Shown: positions 1-31,034 of the stretch, piece after piece
Layout of the letters: each line of letters starts with the position of its first letter
Position numbering within the stretch: the first letter of the stretch is position 1
Assembly (NCBI GenBank): GCA_027604505.1
Contig: JADIIX010000044.1
Span: 124,001-162,291, forward strand
Reading direction: 5' to 3'
DNA: 38,291 nucleotides
Source of the DNA: Gonapodya sp. JEL0774
Taxonomy: Eukaryota
The notes under the pieces: model-generated
Told to the model about the DNA's origin: nothing
What the model saw: only the letters and a program-made list of their open reading frames with translations
Database searches by the model: none
Position numbers and translations under genes: made by a program

Positions 1-1584
1 CTGTATCACATGGTGGTCAACACTCCCTTGATTGGGGCTCTATTTCTTCGAGCTTCATTTCCTTAGCTGGACGCGAGCTGAGGGAACCCAACTGGCCGTT
101 AGTGAATACACCACTGGTGGCCGAACTCCGAACAAAAATTAAGGAGAACAGGGCTGTGGTAATAACTGGCACAGGGGTTACAGGTACTTGACTTTCAACA
201 TCTTGCACCACGGGAGGCTCGAGGGCTTATTATAATTTTTCGAATCAACACTATAGCCAACCTCTGTGGTCGTCGTGCCCCACCACAAGCCCGAGGATGG
301 GCCCGTTTTGTGATTGCACTTGGCGACGAATGTCAGCGGATTTTCCAACTTGACCAGAGTTGGCGCGAAGAGGTTGGATTGGCAACTCTCACCCACAATG
401 CACCGGCAGAGGATATTCAGAAGGTGTCCCAGAGGCTTTTGGAATGGCACAGATCCATGGTCGACAAGAGTGTGGCAAGTCCTTGGGAGCTGTTCAATCA
501 CATTGCTGTGAGTAGGCCATAACGTTAGAGGACAAACACTTTGAAAATCGGGTCATCTTTGCCAAGTGGCTTCTCTTTAGTGATCTCAGGGTTGAGGATC
601 ATAGAATGGCAGAGGTGTTGGATCGTCTGGGAATATGCATCATGACAACGAATTACGGTCTGTTTTGAGCCCTCATCTTGACCCATCCAATATGTTGAAG
701 TAGTCGCTCTCCAGATACTCTTGTCGATGTTGCTCTTCGCCGCATACCTCTGCGACTGGAAGATTTGGCGAAACGGGGGGATGGGTATGTTAGCGTGCGC
801 GCGATTGCTCTGATGTGTGCATAAAGTGACCTCCATTCCAGTTGGTCACAGTTTGTCGACGGCACGGGCTTTTCTCGACATTCACGATATATTCTTCACC
901 TTCATGGTATCTTCTATGATGCAGAGGTGAGCACTGAGATGCATTAGCAAACCATTCTTCTCCGCGAATCGTCTGTTCGTCTTTCTTTTCAAGGATATTG
1001 TCCTCGCCCGCTCGACGTATCAAGAAACCCAACATACCTTTCTCACCGCGCTAAGCTCCCTCATCAAGGGCAAGTTCACTGACTTTGATCGGGAGGACGT
1101 GAGATCCACATCCCTTATTTTTGTTGGGGCTTCGCCTGCGTCCATGATCGACCTCCACTTTCGAGGGCTGTGGCGCGCCATGGAGAACCAGGCACACATT
1201 CTACCACAAAAACATTACATCCTTGTAAGGCAACAAGAGTACGACTTGGCTCTCAAGGAATTGGAGCCATATCAGCGGCATGGAAGAATGGAACTATGTC
1301 CAATAATCTATGGTGCGTTTGATGGTACTGCTCGCATTATGTTTGTTACACATTGAAAAGATCCCCCAATTTCCGCTACGACAGGTCACGACTTTCATGA
1401 TCTCCCGAGTTTTGTAGCGTGTTTATGTCCCGATTTTGCAATGTCAGGTTTCGTGACTCCTGATAAGTCCAGGTCGGTAAGCGAGGGGAACCTGACCCTG
1501 CCCCCTTTGCCGCCTATCGAAGGCTCACTATCGGAGCCGGATGTCGACGTTCAACCTGATGAGAGAATCCCCATTAAGAAGTGA
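1..1584 (+). CDS. SIR2_2 / FAM118 (SIRal)-like sirtuin-fold protein, putative NAD+ hydrolase; 5' end outside window
   Basis: Exons 3-183, 257-507, 567-657, 715-784, 842-926, 994-1312, 1385-1584 joined by GT-AG introns give an uninterrupted 398 aa frame. Motifs in order: AVVITGTGVTAN, ARGWARFVIAL, IMTTNYDTLVD, ILHLHGIFYDAEDIVLARSTYQ, SLIFVGAS..MIDLHFRGL, HYILVR, IIYGHDFHDLPSFV. These match the SIR2_2/FAM118 pattern as I recall it (GxGxS, W, TTNxD, HxHG, LFxG, YGxxYxDLP). Confidence 0.85.
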
Positions 1585-1845
1585 GAAGTTGAAGTTCGAA
1601 CACACTTTGCATGCCATATGATTTAGATCTGTAAAATAGTTTCGTAATTTTAGAAACCCAGCAGTGTATTTTAGATGCCGCAAAGTTTATTTAAATAGAC
1701 AGTACAGTCTCAGCTTGCTGCTTGGACTTATAGTCAGTAATCGGGGGAGTAATCGGGGAGGGTCCTCGGTTGGCCTCTGCTTAAGTCGCGCAGTGCTGGT
1801 GACCAGGTGAACCCGGCGTTCAGCTTCCCAATCATACAGAATCCA

Positions 1846-2642
1846 ATGACTCGGAAAACCACCAAGAAGACCACCGCATCCAAAGCATCTGAGGCGAATC
1901 ATGACTCGGATGGCACAGAGGACTCCGCACTCTCCATGGAAACTATTCGGAGAGGATCGATGCGGCAGGCTACTCAACGTGCGAACGCGCGGATCACGGC
2001 TATATTTACAGAGTCACCGATGATTTCCAATAAAATGGGTAAAAAGGCGGTCGATGCCGGTGTGATCCGGGGTGTCGGTTCGGGGAAACGGGTCGGCGCA
2101 AAGCTGGGCAAGGCAAAGAAGGCCACCAAGGGCAACAAGGAGAACGAAATTGATACAGGCATTCTTGAAGACTTAGTGAACAGACCGCTTCCACAGTTCA
2201 TGGGGCCCCGGAGTGCCATGGAATCGACAATGCCGGACCGTCGGGGAAATGACGATGTCGACGATGATGCACCCTCTGACGAGGAGGACGTCCGAAATGT
2301 GGAGATGAAGATGGCAGACAGATTTGTGTTGTTGTTGGAAAGATGTGAGTGTTCATTTACTCTAAAAAGCGTCTACAGCCGTACTGACATCCACCTCTGC
2401 TGAATGTCCACTTCAACAATCCAGGCGACGATGATGTCGATGATTTTAATGACTATATTACACAAACAGGTGACAGAGGTGTCAAACGGTGGTTGGCCGC
2501 CACAGGCCGCATACCGGTTCCTATCCAGACAACGACGTCGCGCGAATTTGTGGAGGAATATGATGGAAGCTTCGTGCAAATCGCAGCTGATTTAGGAGTG
2601 AACCTGCCGGGGGAGGAATGGAGTCTATCTGTCGATAAATGA
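1846..2642 (+). CDS. hypothetical protein (basic N-terminus, acidic middle), probably spliced; possibly degenerate
   Basis: ATG 1846 (MTRKTTKKTT...), GTGAGT donor near 2346, phase-compatible CAG acceptor near 2424, frame ending at TGA 2640-2642. No recognisable domain. Confidence 0.35.
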
Positions 2643-3439: not shown

Positions 3440-6400
3440 ATGCAACCTTCGATGTTCCGCCGACGCACCAAATCTTCTCGTCTTCCGGGATCGGGTCACG
3501 TCCCCAGCTCTTGGTTCAAGAAGGACTCGGTAGCATCGACTCCGGCGGTCGCTGCGGAACGCTTACCCAAATCAGCTTTGAAGAGGGCAGAACTGGAGGA
3601 AGATGACAAAGAGGAACCCAAGACCGACAATGGTGGTACCAATTCCAACGGCAATACAAGACGTGAATTATTCCTTGCGACTAATAGCTCGGGAGTTGGT
3701 GGCTGCTTACGTTCCTCACCGACAGGTCTGAAAAGGGCCAACAAACACCGCCTTTCCGACAGTGAAACTTCCGATACAGAAGTGTTCCGTGATGTAAATG
3801 ATCAGAGCAAGGAGAAACCGACGAGCAGCACTTCCGAATCTCCACTTTCAGACTCTTCATCTTCAGCAAAATCGAAGCCAGGAAAAGTTGCGAAGATGAA
3901 ACCCAAATCTTCAACGAAGGCTTCCGAGACCGTGGAAAGAGCAGAAAACAGTGGACAAAACGATCGGTTGGAAGTTGATGAAGACGATGCCAATCAGAGA
4001 ACCAAATCAGAAACCGTAACTCCACCTCCGTCATCCTCTTTCCTCGATGGCAGTGTTCTTACCTCTGCCGCCTCTGATGCGGATGCAATGGAAACTGATG
4101 AGTCTCCGAAGTTGTCTGCTGACTACAAGTCGGGGAAGAAGCGCAAAGCATCTCCGTCCCGTGCCTCCAAAAATAAGGCAGCCAAAAGCACGGAAAGAGA
4201 TGATGTGAGCAAGACAAAGGACAAGAGCCATTCATCAGCTGATGGTGAGCCCGAAAACGATGAATCAGACCACGAATCGGATATTGACGAGGAGGAAGTT
4301 GCGCAAATGTGCGTGTTATTTGCTCTGTTCATCGCTCTGACGACATAGCCAATTGTTTTCTTTCTCTTTCTGTAGGGTATCGAAATCGGGAGGATACGAT
4401 TTTGGATCTTGGAAGACTGGTGAAAAGTGCGTGCCTTTCCGAGCGAACTCTTGAAAGCCGCTCCACAACCGATACCAAACCCCAGAATTCCCTACTCGGC
4501 TTTATGTCGTGCATTTGAGCTCATTGAGGCTACCACTAAGCGACTGGAGATCACCAACATCCTGAGCAGATTTTTTAAAAGTGTGATAGAGACCACTCCC
4601 GAGTGTCTGCTTGAATGTCTGTACCTTTGCATCAACAGAGTGGGTGCACGCTTAGCTCTGCCGTTGGCTCAAAACTATTTGTCGAACTATTTCCTGTTCC
4701 CTTTGCCGGAATTAGCTGGGAGCCGAGTATCGCAACAAGGAACTTGGAATCGGCGAGTCTATTCTCACAAAGGCGGTAGCGTCAGCTACCGGTCGTTCTG
4801 GCGATAAGATAAAAGCGGATATGGAAAAGATGGGAGATCTTGGACAGGTTGCACAGGTGCTTCCGTGGTGGCTTGTCAAGACATCAGAATTGGTGGTTGA
4901 CGTTTCCCAATCAACAGGCAAGTCGCAGCAACCAGCCTGTGATGTTCAAGCCAAAGCCTCTGGATGTGAGTAAAGTTTTCAAGTCTCTCAAGGAGATTTC
5001 TGAAACGTCGGGGAAGGAAGTGAGTCCGTCACCGATCGCTGCTTTCTCGAGCCTGGCGTGGCTGAGACAACCCATGTTGAAGTCACAAGCTCGCAAAATC
5101 GATAAGATCAAACTCCTACTTGTCGCCTGTCAGGGAAATGAGCCCCGTTATCTGATTCGATCCCTGGAAGGGAAGCTACGCATAGGTCTTGCGGAGCAAA
5201 CGGTACTCTTGGCACTCGCGAGCGCCGCAGTTATGACGGATTCGGAACTGTCTAAATTGAAAGGTGAAAAGCTGAAAGAGAAAATTGCGGAGGGAGCCGG
5301 GATACTCAAGAGTGTGTACAGGTTGGTAATGCCAAACTCGACTGGACATTTGTTAGTGTCTTGATCTTGTTACACATCCCCATACTTCCTTGCCAGTGAA
5401 CTCCCCGATTACGATTTAATTGTTCCCGTTCTCCTCAAACATGGAATAATGAAGCTCGAAGATCATTGCCACCTCATTCCTGGTTAGTCTTTGCTTTGTG
5501 CTTGTGTATCTGTGGGAAAATGGTCCAATGTCCTCGTAGGGATCCCTCTCAAGCCCATGCTTGCCCATCCAACCAAATCTATAAGCGAAGTCCTTGATCG
5601 ATTTGAGGGAATTCATTTCACCTGCGAGTGGAAGTACGACGGCGAACGTGCCCAGGTACTTAACCATGATCATCATAATGTTCCACACTGACAGGGGGCG
5701 ATCCTCGCGTTTGTTGAGTTCACAGATCCACCACCTCGAAAGTGGAGAGACGAAGGTCTACAGCCGAAATTCGGAAGATTTATCAAAAAAATACCCGGAT
5801 ATTTTAGAGCGTGCGTCAAAGGTATAACTGCTGAATCCATTCACCTCTGGATCCGTGCGCCGACTCACCTACTTCTAGATTGCCAAGGAAGGTGTCAAGT
5901 CGTTTGTTCTCGATTGTGAGGCAGTAGCATGGGACAAAGAGGAGAAAAACATTCTACCTTTTCAAGTTTTAAGCACGAGGAAACGAAAAGTAAGTCACCG
6001 TGCTCAGGAAACCTCACATCGGGGATAGAAGGGTCACACACTTGTCCATTCTTCCAATGTTTGCTCAGGATGTTGCTGTGGAAGATCTCAAAGTGCAAGT
6101 CTGTATCTTCGCGTTCGATCTCTTGTACCTCAATGGGAAGGTGAGTGGATGACTTTCGTACCAAGCCTACAAAGGGTATCGACACTGCATTACACGACGA
6201 TAGCCGCTTATCAAAGAAGCTTTCACAGAGCGCCGTCGTTTGCTTCATGAAAGCTTTCAGCCAATTGAGGGCGAGTTCGCATTTGCCGTCTTCACGGATG
6301 CACAAGGTGCAGACGAAATTCAGAAGGAATTGGATGAGAGTGTCGCAGGCGGTTGCGAGGGCCTCATGGTTAAGACATTGGACAAGGACTCATCATACGA

Positions 6401-7210
6401 GCCCAGCAAACGCTCGAGAAATTGGTTGAAGGTTTGCACAAAGGAGATCATCGTCCACTGTGGTTTTGTTCTGATAGAGTGTCTCAATCTTATAGGTGAA
6501 AAAGGACTACTTGAAGGGTATAGGGGACACACTTGATCTTGTTGTAATTGGCGCATACCTCGGTCGCGGCAAGAGGGTTGGTGTTTACGGTGGTTACCTA
6601 TTGGCGTGCTACGAACCAGACAAAGAAGAGTACCAAACCATCTGCAAGGTTGGCTGGTGATTTTATCTGAAGCAATCTAGTTTATTGATGTTCGGCTTTC
6701 AGATCGGAACAGGCTTTTCGGAGGAGGATCTGAAGACTCAGTTTGAATCTCTCAAGGAGCATGTTGTCTCGGAACCCAAACCCTACTATTCGTATTCGGA
6801 CGACCCGCGAGTGAAGCCCGACGTCTGGTTTGAGCCTTCAATGGTAAGAGAATGTAGATACGCCTGTACGCATGCGGGTTTTTTTTGACATGTTTCCCCC
6901 CATCGATTCTTTCGTCAGGTTTGGGAGGTCCAATGCGCTGATTTGTCTGTTTCCCCCGTACATAAAGCAGCTGCTGGGGAGGTAATTTTTTTCTTTTCTT
7001 CCTGCACTGGATTCAACATTGAGGTGAATGCCCTTAAAATTCTAGGTGGATAGCACAAAAGGTATCTCGCTCCGGTTTCCGAGATTTATGCGCATTCGTG
7101 ACGACAAGCAACCTGATGACGCGACAACAGCGGAGCAGGTTGCAGATATGTATCGCTCTCAAAAGATTCATCACCAGAAAGGGAGCTCTAAACTGGAAGG
7201 CGAGGATTAA
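3440..7210 (+). CDS. CDC9: ATP-dependent DNA ligase I, about 15 introns
   Basis: The spliced product has a disordered N-terminus, a DNA-binding domain ([50 protein letters not shown]), LKPMLAHPT, motif [11 protein letters not shown] (Lys codon 5632-5634), [38 protein letters not shown] and motif [17 protein letters not shown]. Stop TAA at 7208-7210. An alternative upstream in-frame ATG lies at 3266. Confidence 0.97.
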
Positions 7211-23274: not shown

Positions 23275-26200
23275 ATGTCAGTAGCCCTTCCGCGACGGGA
23301 TGATGCAAAGCAACCCCTGGTGAGCTCGTTGTGATGGCCTGCTGGACGGTGTAGGTCAATGACACTTCTCCAATTCAGCTGCATGAAAGCGCCCATCGCA
23401 AAGATGCCAAACGAAATCCAACAAGTCAAATCGATGGAGCAGAGGAAGATTCGTGGTCTAATTGGGTCACCGTCGGACTTCTGGTGGCGACAACCGCGTG
23501 TGTTGCGGCGACGATTTGGATTGCATCGGACCTGAAACTTCCCACATACAACTGGGAGTTTATGAAAGAAGCAAGCGGACTTGTACTAGGCTCGGGGGAG
23601 TGTGAGTAGGATGTTGATTACAACGCCAGAAAGGAACAAAGCGCCAGTTCAACGCACTGTTCCTTATTTCATAGTGGCATCTTCCTCGTACTGTAGTGGT
23701 CACGGAATTCAAACAACTACGAATGTTTGTGTTTGTGACCTTGGGTATAGCGGCCATTCCTGTCAAACCGTAGTTGAAATCCGTGAGTGAGCCGCGCTAT
23801 CACGACCACAATGTCATGGCGACTATTCGATGCTGCTCTTACGCATTTGTGTCTCTTTTCCGGAAACAATATCTTCTCCTCAATTTCTAATATTATATCG
23901 CTCACAAGCCTCAATTCACCGACCAGAGGCCGAGTTTCCACTCACTTCCTCCCGACGCAGTATCTGCTTCGTTCTACCCTACTTCGGTGCCCTTAATCCG
24001 TACATTCCAGAGTCTTCTGCTTATGCTGAAATTGTCCGTACCGTATCACGGGGAGTCGGGCAGGAAGGCGGAATGGACGTGACTGTCCTCTACATTGGCC
24101 AGGAGGATAACACGGAGCAAGATGTGTGGAGTAGAGTGATGACTGAATGGCAGCAAATTGGTGTCAAAATTGAAAAGTAAGCGACCAGATTGGAAGAGTG
24201 GGAGGGTTCTTTGATACGACCTTTCTTTTGTCTTCCCCAAGACTCCCTTCCACCGGAATTCAGTTCACCAAGCCGGGGGTTACTTCGGTCTCATACGACG
24301 TTTTTCGCTATCTTCATTCCTTATCGGAACCGTGAGTATCTCTCGCATGCTCGGGAGGAACCACCATACCGTAATCCTCACAATCACGTTCTGCGATGAC
24401 AGTTATTCGGTCGTGCACTTCCTTTCTTCTACAGGGGCGGGATTTTACACAATGAAAGCACAAAAGCAGGGGCTTGTTTGCTTCTCTTCAAAGTTCGTCG
24501 TTCACGTGGACTCCCCCGGGGAACAAACGTTGCGTCGGCTCGCGGCAGCAGGTAGTCCGCCTAGGGATGTGGAAGTAGAAATGCTAAAGGCTGACTTTAT
24601 GGGACAAAAAATGGTGGAGATGGCGGTACGTTACTCAGTCGAAGAGCGATCACCAGGCTACGATAATGACCACGGCATGTGACCGCATAATCCAGGATTC
24701 GGTACTCACGTCTTTCGATGCCACAATATCAGATCTTGCCCAGCAGAAGTGGCAACTTCCGGAATCAATCTACAGTATCCCATTCATACACTCATCGTCT
24801 GGTGGTGGTGACGCCTCTCTTGGATTGCACCGTCGTTCTCTCGCGCCAATTAACGTAGATGAAATAACTTTCGTCGGCTCGCTCTCTGATGTCCATGGAC
24901 TCCAGCGTGTCTGTGACGCAATTGATATTCTTGATAACTCACTTGGTGATGTCCAATCCTTCCCTCGAATCACATTTCTGGGTCAGATCGGCAAGTTTGG
25001 GGAGATGCCTGCGGACGAGTACATTGAGTCTCGATCGCTCTCTTGGAACAACATTGATTGGGATGTAATAAGTGGCCCGCGAGCCGTCTCCGATATTGTC
25101 TCTTACCTCTCCGACGCCAAGGATGGTTCTGGGCCGCACCGTCTGGCAGTCCTCGCAAACCCATACGACCATTCTGGATTTTTTTACGCTGAGCTTGTTC
25201 GTGCGGGCGTGCCTGTGGTCGCTACTCGCCTACCTGCATATGAAGCAACTCTGGACCCCGAACTGCATTCGGACATGTTATTTGCGTCAGAGACGACTGA
25301 TTTGGTCCGCATTGTAAGAGAAAGTATTACAAGGGGCGCACTCACCCCAATCGCGAGGATTCCATTGATGGATGCTGTTGATACCAGCAATGCGTGGTTC
25401 GATATGTTCATGCGTAATGCCGCCGCGCCAGTGACATGTGACTCGAGCTCAGTCGTGCTTAGTGCTGATGCACAAAACACCGATTTCGATGATGCGGACA
25501 TGGATGGCCCTCTGATCTCGATTGTTTTGGTTCATCGAAATCGTCATCAGCTTTTAGAGCAAGCAATCAAGTCTATTGAAGACCAAACCTTCAATAATTA
25601 TGAAGTCGTTCTTGTCGACGACGGATCTGATGACCCAGATACTCTACAGTACCTGCAAGATCTTGCGTGGAAGTGGTGGGAGGAGCGTGGGTGGCGCGTT
25701 CTCCGGGAACCTAACCGCTACCTTGGAGCAGCCAGAAATACTGGAGTAAAGTACGCAAAGGGCAAATACATTCTTTTCATGGACGATGATGACTACGCCA
25801 AGCCACATCAGCTGGCAACTCTCGCCCGGGTCGTTGCGAACACAAAGCCTGACATTGTCACGGCAGGTCACGACCTCTTCGAAGGATACAGTTCTCCACC
25901 TGGCCAAGGACTTGCTCAGGGCCGCTATCTCCCTCTTGGATCTGCAACTACGGTTGGCCTTCTTGAGAATGTGTTCGGCGACTCCAACATGCTCGTTGAG
26001 CGTAACTTTTTCATCGACACTGGTGGATTTTCTGAGACATTCGGAGTCGGTTTCGAGGATTACGAATTTTTCGCAAAAGCGGTCTTGCGCGGTGCCAACC
26101 TCGAAGCTCTCCCTGAGTCACTTCACTGGTATCGTCGCCATCCGAAAGCGATGTCTTACAACACTGACCTGAAAGCTGGTCAAGTGAGATATCTGAAACC

Positions 26201-29200
26201 TTACCTCGAAGCTGAGAGAAATGTCGATCTCTCAACTCGAGAGGTTATAGGGCTGGCGAAGAGACGTTTCTTCGAGTCTTTCCCCGGCATGATGTATGTG
26301 CTGTTAAATGTCACTGGTCCGAACCCTCCAGGCCCGGAGCCTTTCTGCCCCAACGCAAACAATGGCAGTCGATCTTGTTCTGAGGATCGATGCTGCTCCA
26401 AATCTTTCATCTCAAAGAACACCACTTACTGTGACTTCCTCTGCAGTGAGTTTGGAGAATTCTGCGAGGCCAAAAAGTATCCTCTTTTTGATCTGTTCCT
26501 CCGTGTTCTCTTGCGATAAACAGGCTGCTTCCAGCTCGTATCCTTGGATAAAACTGTCTTCCCCGTCGGAATCGGACAAACGCTCCGAGCAACGGTCAAA
26601 AATCTAGATATATTCAGCACCCCAGGGGACGTCAACCTTTTGAAGTGCAAATTCAGCTTTCCTGCCACAAATTTCGTCAATCGCACTTCGGCCGTCATTG
26701 TTAGCTCAAACACGCTCTTGTGTCCCGTTCCTGTTTCCCTGCCTTACTATGCTCCTGGCGTTTATGGTTGGCAATTTTCGATCGAATACCCGACTGATGA
26801 TCGCATCGTTACAGTTCAGGCGACAGCACCAATGTCGATAAACCCTTACCCAGGTTCTTTGAACATTTCTGCGGGAAACACGATATCAAAGATACGCCCG
26901 GTAACACCTGATGTTCAGGGTTCATTTTTCATCGGAGGGACTTGCAGTATACCGCTCACCTTTACAGCAATGGATTACAGTCGCTTCGCCAATGGCACGA
27001 ATTACCCAGCGTACTGTGTCATCAACAACACGGTTGGGGGCGGTATGCCAATGTACAGTCCTGCTGTACCGGTTAATGGTACCTTCGGAGCATACACATG
27101 TTCGATCAATTGCTCATCCTCCACTCAATACCGGCTACAAATGACTCTAGATTATAATGTCACCGCAAACACATTCAGCAATCTCCTAGCTGGTAGTGTC
27201 GTTGTCAATATTTATGATTCGGCACCCACAGTGCTGTCAGCGGTCCTCTCCAACTCGGGTGCATCCATCACATTCAGCTTCAGCAAACCCATCCGGATCA
27301 GCGGCTACCCAACCCTTCCTACGAGCCTTACAGGATCACAAATATTTGATTCTTCGATGAAGGTTTTGTTTTGTGGAGACCAGGGTACCTTAAGCGACCT
27401 GGTAGTTCGAGTGTTGAACAGCGTAACCCTGGTGGTTGATTTACCATTTTCAAACACTCTGAGCTTCTCTGGGGATTTACCCCAAGTGGTATTCAAGCCG
27501 CTCAGCATCTTCTCTGCGATCAGCAATTTCGATGATTACTTTGGTGTGTCCGCGTCAGCAAGCGTTTCCCTTCCGCCATCACCTCCTGTCCCAGTGGCAG
27601 TAATTAGTGGGCCAGATGCTGTTTCGTATTGTGACTCACTTACTCTCACTGGTCTCAATTCCTATAATCTGGCTGGTCGGCCTGGTACCTATACTTGGAG
27701 CGTTCTTCCTTCCCACGGAGACGTTGTAGCATCTTTATCGTCGACTGCCACAATCACACTGAGCAAGGACATTTTATCGGCACACAAAGGGCAAACCTAC
27801 ACTTTTAGTATCACAGTCAAAAATTGGCTGCAGGGATCTTCTACTGCCACGAAAATTGTGAAGATTAGCGACAAAGGTATTCCGAGTGTCCGGGTGATTG
27901 GAGGGGCCGTGCAGAACATCACAAGTGGGGACGTTTTGACCCTCAAAGCGACTGCTACTTTGTCCATGTGTCAAACCAACTCCAGCAGTGCCCTTGTGTT
28001 CGAGTGGTCGTACAGCCCTTCGTCAGCATCCTTCGATCAAGCATTTGCCACAATGAAGAACAATCCATTCATTGTGGTTCCCTTCTCAAGTCTCTCACCT
28101 ACGCAAATTTACACTTTTTCCGTGTTGGTGTATCCAACCGGGCAACCCGATGCCTCTGCAACAACTGCGGTCACAGTTCGGCCCGTGTTAGGTCCAGTTG
28201 TTGTCTCACTCGGAGCCAGAGCGCGAACAATTTCGGCATCAACAGCGGCAACATTCTATGCTACATATCAAGATTTATCGGCGTTGAGCCTTTCAAGTCG
28301 TGTGATTACGTGGACTGCGTCTTTGGTTGGAGCGGGAACTCTGTTCCCTCTTGACCAGCCAGCGCAAAGTGGAACGGCACTAACGATCAAGGGAGGCACT
28401 TTTACCGCAGGAACTACTATAGTCCTGTCGGTTCTGGCCGATGCCAAGGACGGCACAGGCAGATCCGCGAGTGCGTCGACAACTCTTACTGTGGTTGCCG
28501 AAAAGGTCGTTAGCGCTTACAGCTTCGTTACTGCGCCATCCTACGGAGCCACTACGATATTGCAGTCAAACTCGCTCCAAGTACGCGCTTTTGTGGATCC
28601 TGCATCCATCGTGATCGGTACCCCCGTCTCTTACAGTTGGAGCTCAATTGCAGGCACTGCATCTGACAACGCCACGCCTCTAACGGTACTCACTTTGAGC
28701 AACTCAACAATCACGGATGGCGTTACATCGGTAGCGAGATTAAACGTCGCGCCTGGAGTCCTAGTTCCTGGGGGATACTACAGGTTCCAGTGCACGGTCT
28801 CTCAAGTTGGCTCTTCAAGCACAACCACCTCTGTCGAAGTTAAGGTGGCAGGTCTTCCGACGAGCGGTACTTTGTCACTGACTCCCAGCACAGGCATTAA
28901 GGCCTTGAAAACGATCGTAACTTTATCAGCTCCATACTGGACTGTGATTTCTTCAGAGCAACCATTACTCTACAAGTTCAATATTTACGTTCCGCATACG
29001 TCATATGGAACCCCCAATGTCCTTCCCGCTGTACAGATTTCCACTGACAAAGACAGCTCTGTGGACACAATACTTCCGATTTCGTCTACTTCCAACGTTC
29101 TCATTGAACTCATTGTCAAGTCGTCCATAACGCAAGCATCGACCACAACCACAATGGTTGTATCAGTTGTCAGTGACCTTGCTGACTGGACCGAGTTCAG

Positions 29201-31034
29201 TAGTCTCAACGACGCGGCTGTCGCTGCCGCTCAGAAGGCAGGGAGCGGGATGAATCGCGTCATTCAAATCTTTGCTACCTCAATGAAAGAATGGAAACCG
29301 TCAGTCTCTCTGCCACCATCTATTGCGCAAGCAATTGTAGCGAACACTTTGAATAATGTGTTCGCCAGCAATGTGGTGAGCCCTGATCTGTCCGCTGAAA
29401 GAATTGCAACAATAAGCGCCTTGGTAGACTGCGTCACATTGACCTCGGACCAAGGATCGCAGATTGGTTCCTTTTTGGCGAATGATATTGCGCGCTTGGA
29501 GTCTCAGCAAACGTCCAACCCAAGCTTCTCGATATCTGACAGTGATCTCAAATCGTACTACAAGGCCTTCTCTGGCGTGCTGACTTCCTACACTAATACG
29601 ACAACCAGCGCTAACCAATCGGAAACACTTATTTCTGGAATCCAGGCTGCCCAGCGGCTCAACCTACGATCCATGGCTTGTGGTCAACAAGGAAAGTCTG
29701 CCGCGTTCGGTGATCTTTCGACTTCCATCGGTAAATCAGATCTTTCCTCGAGTGGAACCGTTGACAGCGGAAATGGAACCAGTTTCGGTTTTGGTTCCGG
29801 TCTATCGCTTTCTGTCGGAGACCATAGCGTAAATTGTTTCTGCACACAAGCCCTAAATTCACCCCCGTATCAATTCAACTATGTCGGTGGTATGGCATCG
29901 TAAGTGGATGCTTTGGGTGATCCTACCTGTAGTCGCAGTATTTTGCTCACTAGCTTTTCTCGTTTCAATTCCGAAAAGAAATCAATCGGTGGCCTCCAAG
30001 GTCACAACATTTACAATGGGAGATTGCTCAGAAGGGCCTTCTTTTTCAAATGGTCGTCTGAATCCCAATGGTAGTTTGGAGATCAACTCGACTTCAAACC
30101 AAATTACATTCTCCCTCCCCCTGTCTTCTTCGGTCACCAAGGGATTCAACCCCAGAAATCAATCTTGTAAGTGAAACCCCTGACGGTGTTAGCCTTGTCA
30201 CGCACTAACCCTCAAACTCGATCGCATGCGAAGTCCGTTGTCAGTTTGTCGACCCCGTCACTCGGCTCTTCTCAACTTCCGGAGTCGAGACTCTCAGTTT
30301 TGACAACACAACAGGAATACTTTATTGTAAAACTACCCATTTGACATCGTTCAATGGCGCAGTTGGCCCAACCACTCCAGAATATCCACAAACACCAAGT
30401 GAGAGCTCCACAAACGTTGGAGCGATTGTAGGAGGTGTGATCGGCGGAGCAGCGTTGGTCGGAATTGCCGCAGGAAGCGTTTACTTTGTACAAAAGAAGA
30501 GGAAGGAGAAGGATTCGAAGCAAAAGATGTGAGTCTGGATTTAGATGGATCAGAACTGGTCTGACGCGTTGCGCAACAAACTCTGTCCATGCTTCTAGTC
30601 CTGCGCCGCAATCGACGACGTCAAAGCCCCCCGAGATGCATCAGAAGCCTCTGGATGAGATGAAGAATGCTGCTAAACCTGATTCCGCGGGGCCAGCGGA
30701 CACTATTCCAGTTCGCGCGCCGCCGACTCTTGATGCTAAGGTCCACACACCGACCAGCGAAAATGTGAACTCTGATCCTCCAACATCGTCAAGCAAACCA
30801 GTAGAGCGAGCGTCCCAATTGTCCGCACCACCCGAAGTCCCTCCGGAGGTCGATACAACGACCTCGGTGGCCGAGCCAGTTGCGTCAGTTCCTGTGGCGG
30901 CATTCACCTACACACCACGATTTAGAGAGAGGGAGGAGATTCCTGGCCTTCCTCTCATCCGCTTCGGTCCTCTCTACGAGCTTCCTTTAGAATACGCAGA
31001 TGCCATGAAAATGTTGGGGTTGCGCACCGGTTAG
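23275..31034 (+). CDS. ~2338 aa two-TM fusion protein: signal-anchor TM, EGF, GT4-like (GT-B), GT2 (GT-A), Cys-rich linker, REJ/PKD-like, GAIN/GPS, TM, Pro/Ser-rich tail
   Basis: Exons 23275-23319, 23379-23601, 23675-23782, 23909-24176, 24242-24331, 24403-24625, 24696-26445, 26524-29889, 29954-30166, 30234-30528, 30599-31034 total 7017 nt. All junctions are GT-AG and phase-consistent. Confidence 0.85.
23692..23763 (+). other. EGF-like module
   Basis: CSGHGIQTTTNVCVCDLGYSGHSC. Confidence 0.75.
25506..26160 (+). other. GT2 (GT-A fold) glycosyltransferase domain
   Basis: PLISIVLVHRNR..LLEQAIKSIEDQTFNNYEVVLVDDGSDD, YLGAARNTG, YILFMDDDD (DxD), GGFSE, FEDYEFF, WYRRH. Confidence 0.92.
27580..29180 (+). 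other. REJ/PKD-like beta-sandwich repeats
   Basis: PVAVISGPDAVSYCDSLTLTGLNSY..YTWSV, LTLKATATLSMC..LVFEWS, YSWS..LNVAPGVLVPGGYYRFQCTV, PTSGTLSLTPSTGIKALKT..APYW..PLLYKF. These are typical of polycystin/REJ modules. Confidence 0.75.
30236..30352 (+). other. GPS autoproteolysis motif
   Basis: RCQFVDPVTRLFSTSGVET...ILYCKTTHL/TSF. The HL|T triad is at 30338-30346, about 25 aa before the TM helix VGAIVGGVIGGAALVGIAAGSVYFV followed by KKRK. Confidence 0.85.

What the first reader, a model, noticed from the sequence alone, without database searches (positions are those of the whole stretch)
1..1584. Intact FAM118/SIRal-like SIR2_2 gene hidden by six introns: candidate fungal immune NADase
Seen: the ORF track misses it, but six GT-AG introns remove every stop and rebuild the motifs across junctions (GTGVT|AN, TTNY|D, HLHG..DAE|DIVL, IIY|GHDFHDLP). 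No zinc-binding CxxC pairs of deacetylase sirtuins are visible. Established: SIR2_2 domains are NAD+-depleting effectors in bacterial antiphage systems (Thoeris ThsA, DSR, SIR2-pAgo, SIR2-HerA), and human FAM118B/SIRal is a eukaryotic homologue implicated in innate immunity. The Asn of TTNYD and His of HLHG match the catalytic positions. Inference: an NAD+-depleting defence or cell-death effector in an early-diverging fungus. The frame is open to the window edge, so a sensor or regulatory domain may lie upstream.
Basis: partly seen in the sequence, partly recalled or inferred. Interest (0 to 1): 0.8.

Follow-up and report, generated by a model that had tools for sequence, protein, structure and literature searches.

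The report
Stand-alone FAM118-like sirtuin gene in chytrid
Six predicted short introns hide an intact single-domain relative of human FAM118B and bacterial anti-phage sirtuins in a chytrid-type fungus; it likely cleaves NAD+, but fungal members of this family are already reported and an immune role here is untested.

Summary
The gene is real. Removing six GT-AG introns opens one frame from 3 to 1584. The product matches an annotated Gonapodya prolifera protein at 323 of 378 positions with no gap at any junction. It passes Pfam SIR2_2 (45.1 bits, cut-off 24.5), has no CxxC pair, and keeps FAM118B's active-site W65, N163, H206 and D255, with Y307 as F. Human FAM118B is the best PDB match by sequence and by Foldseek. 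The proposed upstream sensor is not supported: both database models start 7 residues before the window frame. The gene sits in a well-supported clade (99/98) of SIR2_2 proteins without a STAND/NLR body, whose named members are early-diverging fungi and an aphelid. That clade lies next to vertebrate FAM118B with weaker support (93/89). It is not a FAM118 proper (23% identity). Fungal members of this lineage are already published (Bonhomme preprint, clade A). Best reading: a stand-alone, likely weak, assembly-gated NADase. Cell death or defence is inferred from family only. New member of a known kind.

The parts
1..183 (+). Coding exon 1, cut by the window edge (frame starts at 3); about 7 codons missing upstream; holds strand 1 and the GTGVT loop
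184..256 (+). Intron 1, 73 nt, GT-AG
257..507 (+). Exon 2, small helical subdomain; Trp equivalent to FAM118B W65 at 298-300
508..566 (+). Intron 2, 59 nt, GT-AG
567..657 (+). Exon 3; Asn equivalent to FAM118B N163 at 651-653
658..714 (+). Intron 3, 57 nt, GT-AG, splits the Asp codon of TTNYD
715..784 (+). Exon 4
785..841 (+). Intron 4, 57 nt, GT-AG
842..926 (+). Exon 5; His equivalent to FAM118B H206 at 903-905
927..993 (+). Intron 5, 67 nt, GT-AG
994..1312 (+). Exon 6; Asp equivalent to FAM118B D255 at 1150-1152; weak SIR2_2 hit on its own (E 7e-4)
1313..1384 (+). Intron 6, 72 nt, GT-AG; the database model P0001 uses a later acceptor and loses 21 residues
1385..1584 (+). Last exon; Phe equivalent to FAM118B Y307 at 1393-1395, last helix, about 50-residue tail, stop codon

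Best explanation
This is an intact six-intron gene for a single-domain SIR2_2 (SIRim) protein of about 405 residues with a complete FAM118B-type active site and no sensor domain, which likely works as a weak NAD+ hydrolase that would be switched on by self-assembly or a separate partner, probably in stress or immune signalling rather than as a built-in suicide effector. Shown: the open spliced frame, family membership, conserved pocket residues, lack of zinc module and of extra domains, and tree position beside FAM118B with moderate support. Inferred from FAM118B and ThsA: NAD+ binds between the Rossmann and helical subdomains, Asn and His (helped by the Asp) promote loss of nicotinamide, water takes the ADP-ribose, and oligomerisation gates the activity. 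My odds: family 0.97, NAD+ cleavage 0.75, gating by assembly or partner 0.55, immune or stress role 0.4.
For: Orthologue in G. prolifera identical at 323 of 378 positions, 268 of 300 over the domain. Pfam SIR2_2 45.1 bits over cut-off 24.5, no canonical SIR2 hit. PDB by sequence: FAM118B E 1.3e-6, next non-FAM118 hit E 0.31. Model of the orthologue (pLDDT 83.8): Foldseek top FAM118B E 2e-11; VIA Z 21.0-21.6 shared by KomC, ThsA and FAM118B, FAM118B with the longest alignment of those five rows (274 residues). W, N, H, D kept and Y to F; these residues are named as pocket or catalytic in PMC12700824 section 21, and N163A/H206A abolish activity in the Bonhomme preprint. Both papers tie activity to crowding or filaments. 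0 of 31 clade hits carry 150 or more residues after the domain, against 86 of 108 other hits.
Against: No activity or expression data. Identity to FAM118B is only 61 of 269, in the range that PMC12700824 calls non-FAM118, where filament surfaces are not conserved. Filament residue L32 aligns to Arg and F122 to Leu, so the FAM118B filament may not apply. The join with FAM118B is 93/89, not starred, with a single FAM118B row. Strong conservation, no close paralogue found and housekeeping neighbours do not look like a fast-evolving defence gene, though I had no second gene to calibrate the 89% figure.
Confidence: 0.6

Rival explanations
1. A strong NAD+-depleting cell-death or antiviral effector, as in Thoeris or DSR systems, triggered by an unlinked sensor.
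For: Fold ties with ThsA and KomC at Z about 21. Partial PADLOC ThsA match, E 2e-5, profile positions 92-225 of 478. Its nearest outside relatives are mostly SIR2 proteins with long C-terminal extensions, some STAND ATPases. Clade A includes fungal SIR2-NLRs.
Against: No sensor domain in either model. No immune-type Pfam family among 22 neighbouring frames scanned. The nearest characterised relative is weak and is not reported to kill cells.
Confidence: 0.2
2. A housekeeping NAD+-consuming enzyme or scaffold with no immune role (NAD or ADP-ribose turnover, ADP-ribosyl transfer, nuclear body function).
For: Apparently single copy and 89% identical across two species over the domain; lies two genes from DNA ligase I among ordinary genes; an earlier study linked FAM118B to Cajal bodies (as cited in PMC12700824 Discussion).
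Against: Patchy distribution: only a few named fungi among 150 listed hits, at about 25-35% identity, unlike a core housekeeping gene; bacterial members of the subfamily are enriched near defence genes.
Confidence: 0.17
3. The gene is longer than the reader's model: an upstream domain, or the 639-residue fusion to the next gene given by database model P0001.
For: P0001 joins this gene to window 1789-2639. 18 of 31 clade hits have 100 or more residues before the domain. The DNA left of the window could not be seen.
Confidence: 0.05

Closest known systems
Vertebrate FAM118B / SIRal (SIRanc), PDB 9R0P and 9R3E
   Same: Single SIR2_2 domain with short tails, no zinc module, same pocket residues (W, N, H, D, aromatic), best PDB match by sequence and Foldseek, neighbouring branch in the tree.
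   Different: 23% identity; filament residues L32 and F122 not kept by alignment; no second paralogue found to play the FAM118A part; fungi have no TLR pathway (recalled).
SIRim clade A of Bonhomme et al. (bioRxiv 10.1101/2024.09.18.613514)
   Same: Eukaryotic SIRim grouping with FAM118B; the paper reports the lineage in 35 species including fungi, from EukProt, which holds the G. prolifera orthologue.
   Different: The fungal examples described in the text are SIRim-NACHT/NB-ARC-repeat NLRs; this gene is stand-alone. The text does not name Gonapodya or chytrids; Table S4 was not seen.
Bacterial anti-phage SIR2 NADases: ThsA, KomC, DSR2, Avs5
   Same: Same fold (Z 15.7-21.6) and catalytic Asn and His.
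   Different: About 16-21% identity; no SLOG/Macro, STAND or other sensor part in this protein; no operon partner.
Gonapodya prolifera hypothetical protein KXS20734.1
   Same: Orthologue, 323 of 378 identical, same start and architecture.
   Different: Already in NCBI, UniRef and EukProt but named only as hypothetical; slightly shorter tail.

Membership tests
SIR2_2 / SIRim subfamily | Pfam PF13289 above the curated cut-off | tested here: met
   45.1 bits against 24.5 for P0001 residues 176-315, identical to the spliced model there
SIR2_2 / SIRim subfamily | No zinc-binding cysteine tetrad | tested here: met
   No CxxC in the spliced model or in the orthologue
SIR2_2 / SIRim subfamily | Catalytic Asn and His (ThsA N112/H152, FAM118B N163/H206) | tested here: met
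   Aligned to FAM118B N163 and H206
SIR2_2 / SIRim subfamily | Seven or more strands in the Rossmann sheet | tested here: inconclusive
   Seven strands of 3 or more residues in the orthologue's model; sheet membership not checked
SIR2_2 / SIRim subfamily | NADase activity | not testable with these tools
   Needs an assay
SIRim clade A (SIRanc lineage) | Groups with FAM118B apart from bacterial SIRims | tested here: inconclusive
   27 clade rows plus anchovy FAM118B form one side of a branch at 93/89, not starred; one FAM118B row; no labelled rows of clades B-E or of fungal SIR2-NLRs
FAM118 clade proper (PMC12700824) | At least 41% identity to human FAM118, vertebrate host | tested here: not met
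   61 of 269 identical to anchovy FAM118B; 21-24% to human FAM118B in structure alignments; fungal gene
FAM118 clade proper (PMC12700824) | Pocket residues W65, D255, Y307 (or F) | tested here: met
   W, D, F. W and D are also kept in 105 and 107 of 108 outside hits, so they do not single out FAM118
FAM118 clade proper (PMC12700824) | Head-to-tail filament surface (L32, F122) | tested here: inconclusive
   By alignment L32 is Arg (the preceding Leu is kept) and F122 is Leu (the next Phe is kept), so a one-residue offset is possible
Fungal SIR2-NLR | Central NACHT/NB-ARC domain and C-terminal repeats | tested here: not met
   Only about 50 residues follow the domain before the stop; no such Pfam hit in either model
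Thoeris ThsA | C-terminal SLOG or Macro sensor | tested here: not met
   PADLOC match covers only profile positions 92-225 of 478; no further domain
Canonical sirtuin deacylases | Zinc module and PF02146 | tested here: not met
   No CxxC; no canonical SIR2 family listed at E up to 1

The most novel reading that the evidence does not exclude
The gene belongs to an ancient stand-alone SIRal lineage of early-diverging fungi, aphelids and protists that is the true sister of vertebrate FAM118, and it is an assembly-gated NADase serving chytrid immunity with neither TLR nor NLR fusion. A single-subunit fungal enzyme would then show whether filament gating predates vertebrates and which of two published views (ancient lineage versus vertebrate-specific mechanism) holds.
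Probability: 0.2. Interest if true: 0.7.

Novelty: new member of a known kind. Interest (0 to 1): 0.35.

Why it matters
No non-vertebrate eukaryotic SIRim is tested in the parts of the two key papers that I read. A compact, sensor-free fungal member with a full active site is a convenient test of whether weak, assembly-gated NAD+ cleavage is ancestral to the FAM118 lineage, and of whether early fungi use it in defence. It also corrects a database model that drops a conserved segment and fuses two genes. As a discovery it is modest: the family, its presence in fungi and the orthologous sequence are already public.

Tried and rejected
No whole genome was held, so upstream DNA and a paralogue count could not be read directly. 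No RNA holder was listed, which says nothing on expression. A single-sequence fold failed (pLDDT 38). The ESM Atlas gave no answer. A possible seventh intron at about 3-66 was rejected because that stretch is conserved coding sequence in the orthologue. An upstream sensor and the P0001 fusion were rejected. A recent prokaryotic or viral origin found no support: the GTDB scan gave 6 loci at 22-26% identity and IMG/VR 1 locus at 23%; the 4 GTDB loci and the viral locus put on the tree fall outside the clade; these pattern scans are narrow. Shared intron positions with a Thoreauomyces-like metagenome gene (L008) were looked for by eye: its 3 apparent introns match none of the 6 here, which is uninformative at this distance. 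NCBIfam gave nothing above cut-off. Literature searches: Gonapodya + sirtuin, 0 papers; SIR2/antiphage/chytrid/'fungi immune', 0 papers with 3 of 4 terms; searches listed no test of a fungal SIRim by title or abstract start. The Science version of the Bonhomme paper is not held.

Full report
Observation. The window's first 1584 bases hold a spliced gene on the + strand. Removing introns 184-256, 508-566, 658-714, 785-841, 927-993 and 1313-1384 (57-73 nt, all GT-AG) gives 398 codons without a stop from position 3 to the TGA at 1582-1584. Retaining any one intron gives an early stop. As a control I tried 172 GT-AG pairs around the six sites: 53 keep the frame open, so an open frame alone proves little. 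The stronger evidence is independent: a Gonapodya prolifera protein (P0002, KXS20734.1, 390 residues) aligns to the spliced model at 323 of 378 positions with no gap at any junction. The host is thus likely a close relative of G. prolifera (inference from identity; its placement among early-diverging zoosporic fungi is recalled). Splicing itself was not observed in RNA.

Ends of the gene. The database holds this window's own product (P0001) and the orthologue; both begin 7 residues before the window frame, with similar residues. An upstream sensor domain is therefore unlikely, though both starts are predictions and I could not read the DNA left of the window. P0001 uses a later acceptor for intron 6, loses 21 residues including the conserved YG..F.DL segment, and runs on into the next gene at 1789-2639.

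Family. Both proteins score 45.1 bits on Pfam SIR2_2 (cut-off 24.5) and show no other family above cut-off. There is no CxxC. PADLOC gives only partial matches, best ThsA at E 2e-5. In the PDB the best sequence match is human FAM118B (E 1.3e-6). A model of the orthologue folded with 89 sequences reaches pLDDT 83.8, with residues 1-17 and 367-380 under 50. Foldseek ranks FAM118B first (E 2e-11), then DSR2, KomC and ThsA. VIA-align ties KomC, ThsA and FAM118B at Z 21.0-21.6, so the fold alone does not single out FAM118B. The five pocket residues named in PMC12700824 map to Trp, Asn, His, Asp and Phe in the window protein, at 298, 651, 903, 1150 and 1393. W, N, H and D are shared by nearly all hits, so they mark this part of the family and not FAM118 alone. 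Identity to anchovy FAM118B is 61 of 269, and the filament residues L32 and F122 align to Arg and Leu.

Relatives. A full HMMER scan with the orthologue found 249 proteins at E up to 0.001 and listed 150; none but itself came near its identity (others 24-39% over matched stretches). I put the 140 listed hits that cover at least 200 profile columns, plus the window model, on a quick tree; 10 hits were dropped. The window gene falls in a 32-row group (SH-aLRT 93) next to anchovy FAM118B. A careful tree of 49 rows (27 of that group, FAM118B, 16 other hits, 4 of the 6 GTDB loci and the viral locus) gives the group 99/98 and group plus FAM118B 93/89, which is not starred. The group was defined on the first tree, so the second is a refinement, not an independent test. 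I looked up 19 of the 31 hits in the group: 4 carry organism names (G. prolifera, Thoreauomyces humboldtii, Ambispora leptoticha, Amoeboaphelidium occidentale), one cluster has a EukProt member without a name, and 14 have no organism. A metagenome locus of the Thoreauomyces type has introns. Calling the whole group eukaryotic is an inference. Its architecture is distinct: 0 of 31 have 150 or more residues after the domain, against 86 of 108 outside hits; 18 of 31 have 100 or more residues before it, two of them an ADP-ribosyltransferase domain. So N-terminal additions occur in the group, but not in this gene. No close paralogue surfaced; these searches are clustered or word-limited, so single copy is only suggested.

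Surroundings. Of 22 neighbouring frames scanned, Pfam recognised DNA ligase I, a family 2 glycosyltransferase, a PKD/REJ protein, an amino-acid transporter and a fungal transcription factor; none was an immune-type family. The six-frame profile search found no second SIR2_2 gene in the window.

Mechanism. Shown: structure of the gene, family, pocket residues, absence of zinc and sensor modules. Inferred: NAD+ cleavage by the Asn/His/Asp site. In the Bonhomme preprint human FAM118B cleaves NAD only with a crowding agent and N163A or H206A abolish this; the authors describe a weak activity that does not trigger cell death. PMC12700824 ties activity to filaments and to the FAM118A partner. A sensor-free enzyme must be held in check somehow, so low basal activity gated by assembly or a partner is my best reading (0.6). 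A strong death effector (0.2) and a housekeeping role (0.17) remain open. The filament surfaces are reported as vertebrate-specific, so any assembly here may use another interface; the dimer prediction could not be run.

What is known. The preprint reports SIRims in 19.2% of queried eukaryotic genomes and the FAM118B lineage (clade A) in 35 species including fungi, with fungal NLR-type examples. It searched EukProt, which holds the orthologue, so this gene's orthologue may already be in its Table S4; that supplement could not be seen and bears on novelty. Its main text does not mention Gonapodya or chytrids, nor do 9 searchable supplement files of PMC12700824 (one further file unreadable). What I saw: preprint, passages and sections 7 and 8; PMC12700824, abstract, first two parts of Results, sections 21 and 23, part of Extended Data legends, passages; the Science version, nothing; other papers, search listings only. 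Two earlier scan notes on fungal SIR2-NLR genes point to the same paper.

Verdict. A correctly read, intact gene; a new member of a known kind; not a FAM118 proper, probably of the same wider lineage. The part worth following is the stand-alone fungal-protist group beside FAM118B and its untested biochemistry. Interest 0.35.

Noticed in passing
window 1313-1447 and 1581-2639: The database model of this gene (P0001, 639 residues) skips 21 conserved residues and fuses it to the next gene; probably an annotation error.
   Followed up: yes
window about 1846-2640 (+): The next gene, charged and low in complexity, has no Pfam or NCBIfam match in the frames scanned.
   Followed up: partly
window 1736-1758: An 11-base direct repeat, two copies one base apart, between the SIR2_2 gene and the next gene (seen).
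   Followed up: no
window about 3440-7200 (+): DNA ligase I gene with several introns.
   Followed up: partly
window 24588-29903 (+): A family 2 glycosyltransferase frame directly followed by a long PKD/REJ frame; possibly one large surface or secreted protein.
   Followed up: no
proteins P0008, P0013: Members of the same clade fuse an ADP-ribosyltransferase domain (PF01129) in front of SIR2_2, giving two predicted NAD+-consuming domains in one chain.
   Followed up: no
proteins P0007, P0011, P0012, P0024, P0026: An unnamed N-terminal domain of roughly 120 residues precedes SIR2_2, apparently twice in P0007; no Pfam match.
   Followed up: no
L008 114-1660: Intron-containing metagenome gene of the Thoreauomyces type; its three apparent introns are at other positions than the six here.
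   Followed up: partly
L001 2983-6423: An IMG/VR contig carries a 1146-residue bacterial-type SIR2 protein with an ATPase-like motif and a cysteine-rich end (motif names recalled); it lies outside the clade.
   Followed up: partly
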